A stretch of 63,897 nt of DNA, filler included, from Kipferlia bialata (taxonomy: Eukaryota), in assembly GCA_003568945.1 (NCBI GenBank). It is 5 parts of 5 records of this genome, joined end to end, with 100 filler letters (N's around TTAATTAATTAA, not from the genome) between each part and the next. Parts side by side here need not be neighbours in the genome. Positions count along the whole stretch, not along the records: positions 1 to 23,883 come from BDIP01000245.1; 4 more parts are not named here. The stretch is one strand, 5' to 3'. A program made the translations under genes and the position numbers. Positions 20,701 to 23,406 of the stretch are shown one piece after another (within the stretch, counting starts at the first letter, position 1; each line of letters opens with the position of its first letter). Below the pieces are notes generated by a model that was not told the origin of the DNA, did not search any database, and saw only the letters and a program-made list of their open reading frames with translations.

Positions 20701-23406
20701 GTACCCATATACTATGTATTACATATATACATATAATACTACTACACACATTTATATATATATACATACATGGATACCCTACCTCCTGGGGCACTGCCAG
20801 GTCCACAGCCACCCAACTTCTCTCCCTATATACAAAGAATCGTACCCTAACAATATAGATACTACGTACTATATACTATCTATATAGATATAGATAGATA
20901 GATACCTCCTGGGGCACTGCCAGGTCCACAGCCACAGAGACACTGCTCTCAGGCAGGCTGAAGCGGAGCTTAGTGGTGGAGTAGGAGTCGCCGCGCTTGG
21001 TTGTTGCGGCAGCAGGCTTCTGAGAGGTGAGTGACAGGTATTAGGGGGAGAGAAACTGAAATACCTTATACATAGTCATATATTTGGGATACAATAGTAG
21101 CATTAATAGTCAAAGGTGGTGGTGTGGGAATCAGTGGTTCTAGTCTAGTAGCAGTGTTCCTCTCCTGATCAAGAAGATAGAGGCAATGTACAGGGGGTAT
21201 TCTTATCTTGTATACTCTATCATAAGACATGAATAGGTATAGCTTGGCCTAGCGAGAGGCAGAGAGAGAGGAAGAGAGAGAGAGAGGCATACCTTCTCAG
21301 ACACCACCTCCTTGAGGCCGATACTCTCTGCAAATGTGACAAGGCTCTGCTTGGCACTCTCCAGCTCATCCTTGGATGGAACGAGTACGTCAATGTCACT
21401 GGCTGACTCTCCCCTCACCACCCAGTCTCTGAGATAGCCGCCAAACACAGTGACGCCACTCACCTGGTGTGGGGTGGTATATAGTGAGAGCCACACAGAT
21501 ACCCACATATATATAATAATGTTAATGAATGTCTCTATATGTATATGGATAGCTACACTCACCTGGGGTAGGAGGGGGAGGGGGTTACTGAGAGGATAAT
21601 GTATGATGTCAGCACAATGCCTCATACATATGGTCATAAATTCCTGTATATAGAGTATCTATACTCACATGTGGTAACACAGACATCATCTCACATATAC
21701 ACGATGTGTGATACATGCATATATATATACATATACCTCAATAATCTCAGTGGACATTATTATACTGTATTACATACCCACAGTACGTCATTATACAAAC
21801 ACATCCGCACACACACTATATATATATATGAATATATGAATATATCCTATATTATATATGCTATATATGCATGTGAATTCACACAGATACTTATCTATGG
21901 ATATACATACACACTCACCCATAACATGTGGTGGCACAGGCATGTCAGCACGGCATCTCTGTCACTGCTGGAGGGGGGGGGAGGGGTGGGGGTGAGGAGA
22001 GAGCGGAGGCGGCAGTTAGTGAGGCATACTGGGCTGGCAGGGTTGTCGGAGAGGGTCTTGTGGACATCCGGGTAGCCAAGAGGGGTGGGTACTGGTGGGT
22101 AAGGCAAACAGTGGTAAAAGGTGTAGAGAGAATACAAGAGAATAGAGAGAGAGATAGAGAGAGAGAGCCTACACACCTCTGTGGAATAGGTCGTGCCTCC
22201 CAGCCAGTAGGCTACACGGTATGCTCCAGCCCTCAGTGGAGTAACTTGTATTAGAGGGAGAGACACAGACAGAGAGAGGGGGGGGGGGAGATACGGAATG
22301 CTCCAGCCCTCAGAGGAGTAACCAGTGATAGAGAAGGATTAGAGAGTATTTGGTATTTGAGACAAGTGGGGAGAAGTGAGAGGAGAGGGGGGGGGGAACA
22401 TCCATCTTGGATGGGGAGTGTAAGTGTAGATTTGCACCCACTATATAGCTATGTTCAAGGATGCACTGAGGAAAAAAAACACACACACATATATACCTAG
22501 AAGCGACCTTATCCCCTGCCAGAGAGAACAGGGCATGCTCTAGGTACATGCATTATGCCACCATATATACACTATACACACTATATACACTGTATATACA
22601 AATATACCTTGATGCCACCTTATCTCCAGCTAGGCTGAACAGGGCATGCTCTAGCAACATACACTATATATACACATATATACAATATACTCATGTATTT
22701 GTATATTCTATATACATATGTACCTTGATGCCACCTTGTCCCCAGCTAGGCTGAACAGGGCATGCTCTAGTATTCATACATTATACACATATGCACTATC
22801 TATAACGTGTACACATTCATGTATATACATATATGTACATATCAGTGTACCTTGATGCCACCTTGTCCCCTGCCAGAGAGAACAGGGCATGCTTTGGGCA
22901 TTATTACTATATATTCACTATATATACACTATCTACCTCATATATATATTTATATATGAGTGTGTATATACATACCTCGAGGCGACCTTGTCCCCTGCCA
23001 GAGAGAACAGGGCATGCTCTAGGTGCAGGGACCCAGAGGGGTCAAAGGACCTGATAGTGCCTACAGTTGAGCTTTACGATTCATATAGTATATGAGTATA
23101 GATACTAAAAACACACATGCATACATATACATATATATATATACATACATATATATATATATAAAGGAAAAGGACTTGATGATGGATTCGAAGGGCCTGA
23201 TGGAGCCTAAGGGGGGGGGGGGAGAGAGAGAGACAGAGGGAGAGAGAGATTGTCATGTACAATTTCTACCCGATCATCAACATCCACCAACCTTCCACCA
23301 CTCTCTCCCTCTCTGTCTCCCCTGGCATAGGTAGGCCAGGTATGTCAGACCCTATGGGCAGAGTGACTCTACACCCCACCCCCTCGAACTGGAAGGGGAC
23401 AGTCAT
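17747..23406 (-). CDS. Putative nucleotidyltransferase (class II CCA/poly(A) polymerase-like head) with possible N-terminal Sm-like fold and C-terminal RNI-like LRRs
   Basis: Exon chain from MTVPFQFEGVGCRVTLP. Exon 21293-21463 encodes VTVFGGYLRDWVVRGESASDIDV (GG..RD...DxD), followed by VDL and DVRCDCRAGNL. C-terminal exons LVIEFQRPCDSGAVAIARALAVCPSLKK and LTEFYLLGCDIS are LRR-like. The 3' end is uncertain. Confidence 0.7.

What the first reader, a model, noticed from the sequence alone, without database searches (positions are those of the whole stretch)
22495..23060. Synonymous donor-half copies including a TCT/AGC serine switch
The complete exon (minus strand, 22976-23060) ends TTC TCT CTG GCA GGG GAC AAG GTC GCC TCG AG|GT. 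Downstream copies read TTC AGC CTA GCT GGG GAC AAG GTG GCA TCA AG|GT, ...GCT GGA GAT AAG GTG GCA TCA AG|GT and ...GCA GGG GAT AAG GTC GCT TCT AG|GT. All encode FSLAGDKVAS. The copy near 22849 looks like a mosaic of two types (TCT CTG GCA ... GTG GCA TCA), which suggests recombination among copies.
Basis: seen in the sequence. Interest (0 to 1): 0.8.

Follow-up and report, generated by a model that had tools for sequence, protein, structure and literature searches.

The report
Spliced-out exon-end copies hoarding alleles
In the free-living flagellate Kipferlia, most exons examined are flanked by tandem copies of their own ends that the main transcript skips, yet these copies differ mostly at silent codon positions, likely because they were refilled by recombination from diverged working alleles, which would make them a record of hidden genetic exchange.

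Summary
Observation confirmed. One complete exon and four downstream donor-half copies differ at 10 of 41 shared sites, all silent at codon level, including TCT/AGC. DNA contigs cross three of four spacers at single-copy depth; the RNA contig uses only the complete exon. The host is Kipferlia bialata KIPB_001665.

The feature is window-wide: 112 end copies at 49 of 79 modelled exons, donor halves always downstream, acceptor halves always upstream. This is the known amphioxus 'mirage' type; this scan has seen it in marine invertebrates.

What differs: 132 of 209 variants are synonymous (about 30% expected if neutral, about 46% for a retired copy). The bias is strongest near the splice site. Changes private to outermost copies look retired (18:20); those in inner copies do not (31:15; 17:2). 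Copy donors differ from the parent's yet score like real donors.

Best reading (0.55): out-of-register recombination refills copies from diverged working alleles. No second allele was seen.

Verdict: new variant of a known kind, interest 0.55.

The parts
22976..23060 (-). Complete exon 2 of KIPB_001665, the only version in the RNA contig
   Evidence: (X2 record 9 covers 22976-23059 with 0 other letters)
22851..22898 (-). Donor-half copy 2 (TCT serine; GTG GCA TCA), followed by GTACAC
22724..22770 (-). Donor-half copy 3 (AGC serine), followed by GTACAT
22608..22654 (-). Donor-half copy 4 (AGC serine; GGA GAT), followed by GTATAT
22497..22548 (-). Donor-half copy 5, the outermost (TCT serine; GAT, GCT, TCT), followed by GTATAT
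22549..22975 (-). Four TA/TG-rich spacers of 77, 80, 69 and 59 nt between the units, weakly alike
   Evidence: 3 of 6 pairs beat all 300 block shuffles; in the other three, 4-8 of 300 shuffles reached the score
22293..22321 (-). Acceptor-half copy of exon 3 that has lost its AG
22177..22244 (-). Exon 3 (68 nt), joined to exon 2
   Evidence: Length accounting in RNA record 9 (66+2 nt) and P0001. The laying tool put 24 letters on the acceptor copy instead, so this exon is inferred, not directly laid.
23184..23206 (-). Old, diverged acceptor-half copy of exon 2 upstream of it (GSIRPFES against GTIRSFDP)
   Evidence: seen by eye; below the script threshold and not counted
17745..23406 (-). Host gene KIPB_001665: 15 exons, 634 aa. 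Weak Sm/LSm-like N-terminus holding the copied stretch, and a weak nucleotidyltransferase motif
   Evidence: Pfam NTP_transf_2 E 0.053, below cut-off; Atlas LSM TM 0.57, under the bar
9748..17183 (+). Diphthamide-synthase-like gene (20 exons modelled) with 30 end copies, 8 of them behind exon 9 (12507-12578)
   Evidence: Pfam Diphthami_syn_2 E 0.0033, below cut-off
311..8247 (-). 20-exon gene with 28 end copies; primase large subunit by recalled motifs only
   Evidence: no Pfam hit on the two single exons tried
24458..29007 (+). LRR-like gene (8 exons modelled, not RNA-checked) with large acceptor-half and donor-half arrays; part of the replication set
58525..61054 (-). 8-exon gene (glycolipid-transfer-protein-like, recalled) with 11 end copies; part of the replication set

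Best explanation
These are mirage-type tandem duplications of exon-intron boundaries that the main transcript splices out, and their splice-proximal parts were likely overwritten, by out-of-register recombination, with working exon ends from diverged alleles. Step 1 (geometry shown, cause inferred): a duplication of about 100-150 bp with one breakpoint inside an exon and one in the microsatellite-rich intron leaves a complete exon plus a half copy. Step 2 (shown for the main RNA contigs): the spliceosome pairs the first donor with the last acceptor, so the copies are silent. Step 3 (inferred): introns diverge beyond pairing, so exon ends are the only homology left. A copy on one chromosome can then mispair with the working exon end of another allele. 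A crossover there gives an inner copy the other allele's codons, donor and intron start from the crossover onward, and lengthens the array. Step 4 (inferred): the differences between units are then mostly old silent polymorphism between working alleles, TCT/AGC included. The breakpoint end and the outermost unit decay as ordinary dead copies.
For: Polarity: 63 donor halves, all downstream; 49 acceptor halves, all upstream; none reversed; 8 internal hits dropped. Synonymous share: 95 of 160 in three genes (nulls 0.29 by base and by trinucleotide; retired-copy null 0.45, p about 1e-4). It holds without the focal family (68 of 112) and replicates (54 of 85, retired null 0.50, p 0.008). Pooled: 132:77. 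Gradient from breakpoint towards the splice site: non-synonymous 25, 23, 14, 3, 0 and synonymous 19, 20, 21, 16, 19. In copies of 40 nt or more, 22:0 in the splice half against 16:15 in the far half; replicate 33:11 against 15:22. Variants private to the outermost copy 18:20, private to another copy 31:15, shared by a subset 17:2. Of 37 copy donors with GT, 32 differ from the parent at +3..+6 yet score 2.4 bits, against 1.5 for real donors and -0.5 for random intronic GT. Exon parts are 92% identical, intron positions from +4 about 45% (unrelated introns about 30%). Toy simulation: sister-only or low-diversity exchange gives pN/pS of 0.4 or more; high-diversity allelic exchange or diverged donors give 0.10-0.63, lower in the splice half.
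Against: No second allele was seen. X1 shows no other letters and no second-haplotype contig over 19000-23850, though contigs drop bubbles. No relative of P0001 was found in the metagenome contigs or the protein database. The model needs allele divergence near pS 0.2, which is not documented for this species. Single copies are also biased (41:25), though they are terminal. Subsets are not all significant against the retired null: acceptors in set 1 (17 of 37) and donors in set 2 (19 of 37). The four-gamete signal is thin. Sites within a family are not independent, so p-values are optimistic. The split by position in the array is one of several I tried. The simulation is a toy (N=200, 8-12 replicates, every non-synonymous change lethal).
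Confidence: 0.55

Rival explanations
1. Ordinary retired copies. Each unit was duplicated from the same chromosome and decays neutrally while the parent exon gains only silent changes, which by itself gives a silent bias (pN/pS about 0.5).
For: It explains the polarity and the silence in RNA. Changes private to outermost copies fit it (18:20). An earlier scan note on an urchin array (e1-7880682) reached this reading.
Against: Pooled 132:77 against an expected share of 0.46 (p 5e-7, optimistic). Inner copies 31:15 and subset-shared variants 17:2, where it predicts about 0.3-0.46. It gives no reason for the gradient, or for donors that differ from the parent but stay consensus. Simulated sister-chromatid exchange does not go below about 0.5.
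Confidence: 0.15
2. The copies are under direct selection because some transcripts or some nuclei use them, by minor splicing, a repeat-guided jump or somatic deletion between repeats.
For: Low pN/pS, only 2 stop codons among the variants of 67 copies (one search list), and strong donors. Contigs hide rare forms.
Against: Donor halves have no matching in-exon donor to swap them in (read). 18 of 67 copies are in frame and only 2 read through without a stop. The RNA contig carries only the parent sequence at the focal exon. All 10 of the 13 listed DPH6 joints that span copy-bearing introns use the outer sites. No DNA joint between units was listed at 3%. It does not predict the inner/outer difference.
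Confidence: 0.13
3. Hybrid scars. After rare crosses between distant lineages, a break inside an exon is repaired by one-ended copying from the diverged homolog plus end joining. This pushes the old working half downstream as a new copy each time.
For: It also gives the polarity, silent differences and foreign intron starts without a prior array. It fits a strain that now looks homozygous here. The 'rare diverged donors' simulation gives 0.21/0.10.
Against: Units of an array share breakpoints (33-38 nt from the acceptor in the focal array; 28, 37 or 42 nt in DPH6 exon 9). Displaced halves should show no smooth gradient. No homeologous gene was found.
Confidence: 0.14
4. Assembly artefact: haplotypes strung together through TA repeats.
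For: Short-read style assembly with gaps; no long reads were seen; X1 may be the source sample; unit order is unverified.
Against: Spacer-to-mid-exon junctions are in read-derived contigs at the same depth as unique DNA, and the exon's 5' half occurs once. Intact alleles could not supply such junctions.
Confidence: 0.03

Closest known systems
Amphioxus 'mirage' minisatellites (Adh3, globins BflGb6/BflGb9, troponin C, PGBD5). PMC3087553 and PMC3902484: passages of section 16 of each read; supplements not seen; the original Adh3 paper (PMC117041) is not held.
   Same: Tandem duplications of either exon-intron boundary; units of similar size (150-160 bp in the globins, 111-127 bp here); most units keep AG/GT; regular splicing is unaffected; unequal crossing-over is proposed; terminal units behave differently.
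   Different: Here they occur in a unicellular metamonad and at 49 of 79 modelled exons. Only the exon part is conserved (92%), while the intron part is near background from +4. The passages read say nothing on codon-level bias, a gradient or allelic refilling.
Human CBS 844ins68 (PMC2630376, passages read)
   Same: A 68-bp duplicated intron-exon junction; the distal site is used; the skipped part hides a variant and is proposed as a gene-conversion template for the working exon.
   Different: A single copy at one locus, carrying a harmful missense change; no silent bias, no arrays.
[quoted passage not shown]
   Same: A duplication across an intron-exon boundary that inherits splice signals.
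   Different: There a new intron forms; here the copies only lengthen existing introns.
Silent donor cassettes for gene conversion (trypanosome VSG, Borrelia vls, chicken pseudo-V genes); recalled, no call
   Same: Unexpressed partial copies that keep coding sense and exchange with an expressed site.
   Different: Those are programmed and diversify the protein; these sit in housekeeping-type genes and conserve it.

Membership tests
Mirage minisatellites | Head-to-tail repeats that span an exon-intron boundary | tested here: met
Mirage minisatellites | Both 5' and 3' boundaries can be duplicated | tested here: met
   63 donor halves and 49 acceptor halves
Mirage minisatellites | Many but not all units keep AG/GT | tested here: met
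   GT in 55 of 63 donor copies, AG in 41 of 49 acceptor copies
Mirage minisatellites | Regular splicing is undisturbed | tested here: met
   Main RNA contigs use the outer sites; minor forms cannot be seen in contigs
Mirage minisatellites | Whole units highly alike (81-100% in BflGb6) through concerted evolution | tested here: not met
   Exon part 92%, intron part about 45% from +4; spacers only weakly alike. This is why it is filed as a variant that works like a mirage.
Mirage minisatellites | Array length varies between haplotypes or somatically | tested here: inconclusive
   No unit-skipping DNA joint listed in one contig-level run
Mutually exclusive or cassette duplicate exons | Each copy has its own acceptor and donor and appears in mRNA | tested here: not met
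   Copies are halves and are absent from the main RNA. A TAG 43 nt before the donor in copies 3-5 would be in frame, but no use was seen.
cDNA-derived (retro) insertions | Copies run across exon-exon junctions | tested here: not met
   Donor copies continue into GT and intron-like sequence, not into the next exon
Silent donor cassettes | Programmed conversion into the expressed site | not testable with these tools
   needs clones or population data

The most novel reading that the evidence does not exclude
Kipferlia keeps, beside most exons, a genome-wide archive of other lineages' working exon ends. Copies and exon exchange in both directions, so the silent copies act as a neutral staging ground where two-step changes such as TCT to AGC can be completed and then returned to the gene. 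The arrays would be direct evidence of recombination among hyper-diverged lineages in a free-living relative of Giardia, tolerated by a reduced spliceosome that always picks the outermost sites.
Probability: 0.3. Interest if true: 0.8.

Novelty: new variant of a known kind. Interest (0 to 1): 0.55.

Why it matters
(1) DNA that is never in the main message but evolves with pN/pS of about 0.2-0.3 needs an explanation. If it is allelic refilling, one genome yields a sample of alleles and a test for cryptic sex and hyper-diversity in fornicates. (2) It offers many natural decoy tests of splice-site choice. Decoy donors score as well as real ones yet are skipped, the opposite of nearest-site intron definition, in a species reported to keep 87 of 174 spliceosomal proteins (PMC6679479, abstract and passages). 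(3) It bears on how K. bialata came by its 124,912 introns (PMC5874029, passages), since boundary duplication is a proposed route to intron gain. (4) Gene predictors can mistake these copies for exons.

Tried and rejected
No whole genome is held for this window, so nothing beyond it could be counted. The run search listed 2 runs and no holder on record as RNA; X2 is RNA by guess, but its contigs skip GT-AG introns. The metagenome scan with P0001 gave 594 pattern hits and none was confirmed. Homolog searches found only P0001 itself (longer; near) or nothing (shorter, residues 1-110). The frame-free phase test (221 of 383, p 2e-4) is not relied on, because it counted families several times. The stop count '29 of 67' is a script error (trailing bases after the primase-like gene's stop); the variant list shows 2. 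An alternative donor 4 nt downstream that would keep an Arg-Tyr pair and use a different next exon was rejected by the RNA join and P0001. Recursive splicing at AG|GT was considered: most exons here end in AG anyway, and it would not constrain codons. Mutational context was rejected by the trinucleotide-matched null. Introns with and without copies do not differ in dinucleotide-repeat share (0.21 against 0.195). Literature searches found no description of such copies in Kipferlia and no codon-level analysis of mirages; subscription papers and supplements were not seen.

Full report
OBSERVATION. The minus strand holds an 85-nt exon (23060-22976) followed by four copies of its last 47-52 nt. Each copy ends in AG|GT, and TA/TG-rich spacers of 59-80 nt lie between them. 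Over the shared 41 nt there are 10 variable sites and no amino-acid change; copies 3 and 4 have AGC where the others have TCT. With 28% of single changes silent, this is far beyond chance (about 1e-5). Three non-synonymous differences lie at the ragged far ends of copies 2 and 5.

IS IT REAL? Two runs hold the stretch. DNA-type X1 gives contigs across three of the four spacers at depth 427-464, like unique DNA (453-464). One of the three meets the 31-letter bridging rule; the fourth spacer is not among the pieces listed. X1 may be the source sample, and the order of units is not checked by long reads. However, junctions from spacer into mid-exon cannot come from intact alleles. RNA-type X2 gives one 2122-nt contig (depth 9) with the complete exon, no other letters, and all four copies skipped. 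The next exon (22244-22177) is inferred from length and from P0001, because the tool laid 24 letters on a nearby acceptor copy.

HOST. A search with one exon returned a single protein, Kipferlia bialata KIPB_001665, on a 23,883-bp contig; the window's first scaffold linker starts at 23,884. My spliced model equals it. Its function is unclear: a weak Sm/LSm-like N-terminus and a weak nucleotidyltransferase motif. No second copy or ortholog was found.

IT IS WINDOW-WIDE. I modelled three genes. The host gene and a diphthamide-synthase-like gene rest largely on RNA joints. A primase-like gene rests on an open GT-AG chain with two RNA pieces. Both flanking introns of all 55 exons were searched with frame-blind scoring. 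This gave 68 hits: 42 donor halves, all downstream; 25 acceptor halves, all upstream; 1 internal, dropped. A second set of 24 exons, not RNA-checked and with one frame chosen between two open ones, gave 21 and 24 with the same polarity and 7 internal hits, dropped. Pooled: 112 copies at 49 of 79 exons. This polarity is what any tandem duplication with one breakpoint inside an exon produces. Of 13 listed joints of the DPH6 contig (depth 278), 10 span copy-bearing introns, and all use the first donor and last acceptor. The scaffold piece 47958-55570, poor in dinucleotide repeats (0.05 against 0.15-0.17), shows one repeat pair, inside an open reading frame.

THE ODD PART. In set 1, 95 of 160 distinct variants are synonymous, against 0.29 under base-matched and trinucleotide-matched nulls (none of 5000 permutations above 71). 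The fair null is a retired copy, where silent changes accrue on both branches (0.45); the data exceed it (p about 1e-4), also without the focal family. Set 2 gives 54 of 85 against 0.50 (p 0.008). Acceptors in set 1 (17 of 37) and donors in set 2 (19 of 37) are not significant alone. Per copy, pS is 0.21 and pN 0.036. Non-synonymous changes fall from 25 to 0 with distance from the breakpoint while silent ones stay near 19. Long copies give 22:0 in the splice half and 16:15 in the far half; set 2 gives 33:11 and 15:22. In multi-copy arrays, changes private to the outermost copy are 18:20, those private to another copy 31:15, those shared by a subset 17:2, and those shared by all 8:3. Single copies give 41:25. 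The exon part is 92% identical to the parent, while the intron from +4 is about 45% (unrelated introns about 30%). Of 37 copy donors with GT, 32 differ from the parent's at +3..+6, yet they score as well as real donors and far above random intronic GT. Sites within families are not independent, so all p-values are optimistic.

RECOMBINATION TEST. In the focal array the 'mosaic' blocks fit a tree ((1,5),(2,(3,4))). The six incompatible pairs all involve one GAC/GAT site. DPH6 exon 9 has 2 incompatible pairs of 3; two other four-member families have no informative sites. This is weak support.

MECHANISM. Shown: the geometry, skipping in the main RNA, the silent bias, the gradient, the inner/outer contrast, and distinct but consensus donors. 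Inferred: mispairing of a copy with the working exon end of another allele, and crossover within the 45-nt homology. This replaces a unit from the crossover to the splice site and beyond, so it refreshes the splice-proximal part most often, brings in a foreign working donor, and spares the outermost unit. In a toy forward simulation, no exchange, sister exchange or low diversity gave pN/pS of 0.41-0.58 or higher. Allelic exchange at high diversity gave 0.63/0.31 and 0.35/0.10 (far half/splice half), and rare diverged donors gave 0.21/0.10. The missing piece is a second allele: none is visible in X1 contigs here, although the genome paper reports two k-mer peaks suggesting diploidy (PMC5874029, passages). 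Rivals: plain retired copies (0.15), one-ended repair from a diverged homolog (0.14), direct use (0.13), artefact (0.03).

WHAT IS KNOWN. After I had recorded my reading, an earlier scan note pointed me to amphioxus 'mirages'. I read the passages myself: tandem duplications of exon-intron boundaries, either side, splice signals mostly kept, splicing normal, unequal crossing-over proposed, boundary units excluded from homogenisation. The scan has noted such arrays in urchins, annelids and molluscs and nothing in this genome. Human CBS 844ins68 is a single-copy analogue proposed to template gene conversion. The Kipferlia arrays meet four mirage features, fail whole-unit similarity, and leave length instability open. 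Ten paper searches found no account of them in Kipferlia and no codon-level test of mirages. The original Adh3 paper and all supplements were not seen and may bear on this.

VERDICT. Real, and a new variant of a known kind. The architecture is ordinary mirage. The density in a metamonad, and a selection signature stronger than retirement explains and structured by position, are the surprising parts. Interest 0.55.

Noticed in passing
window 23884-23983, 47858-47957, 55571-55670, 61176-61275: The window is five scaffold pieces joined by N44-TTAATTAATTAA-N44 linkers, so neighbours across them are not true neighbours.
   Followed up: yes
window 10640-10754 (+): A GC-AG intron in the diphthamide-synthase-like gene with an 8-nt direct repeat at its ends, supported by the RNA joint. 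This is what intron gain by duplication would leave.
   Followed up: partly
window 25821-26181 (+): Three acceptor-half copies of an LRR exon begin AG|C where the exon begins AG|T. The split codon is AGC against AGT, serine both ways, so the silent bias holds across the junction.
   Followed up: partly
window 47958-55570: A GC-richer scaffold piece (dynamin-like gene by recalled motifs, about 52000-55500, minus strand) with few microsatellites and no half-exon copies.
   Followed up: partly
window 12507-13399 (+): An array of 8 donor-half copies. One is identical to the exon over 44 nt yet has a different intron start from +3.
   Followed up: yes
window 39400-47800 (+): Three related genes in tandem that share exon sequences (near 40545, 43615 and 47172), some with their own end copies.
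   Followed up: no
window 1-50 (+): Looks like the 3' half of a tRNA gene (read by eye).
   Followed up: no
copy breakpoints, window-wide: Far ends often run straight into (TA)n, (AG)n or (TC)n that begins with the exon's own last bases, a possible microhomology or slippage signature; not quantified.
   Followed up: no
window 56588-57874 (+): A long intronless GC-rich ORF with (KPV)n repeats, free of copies.
   Followed up: no
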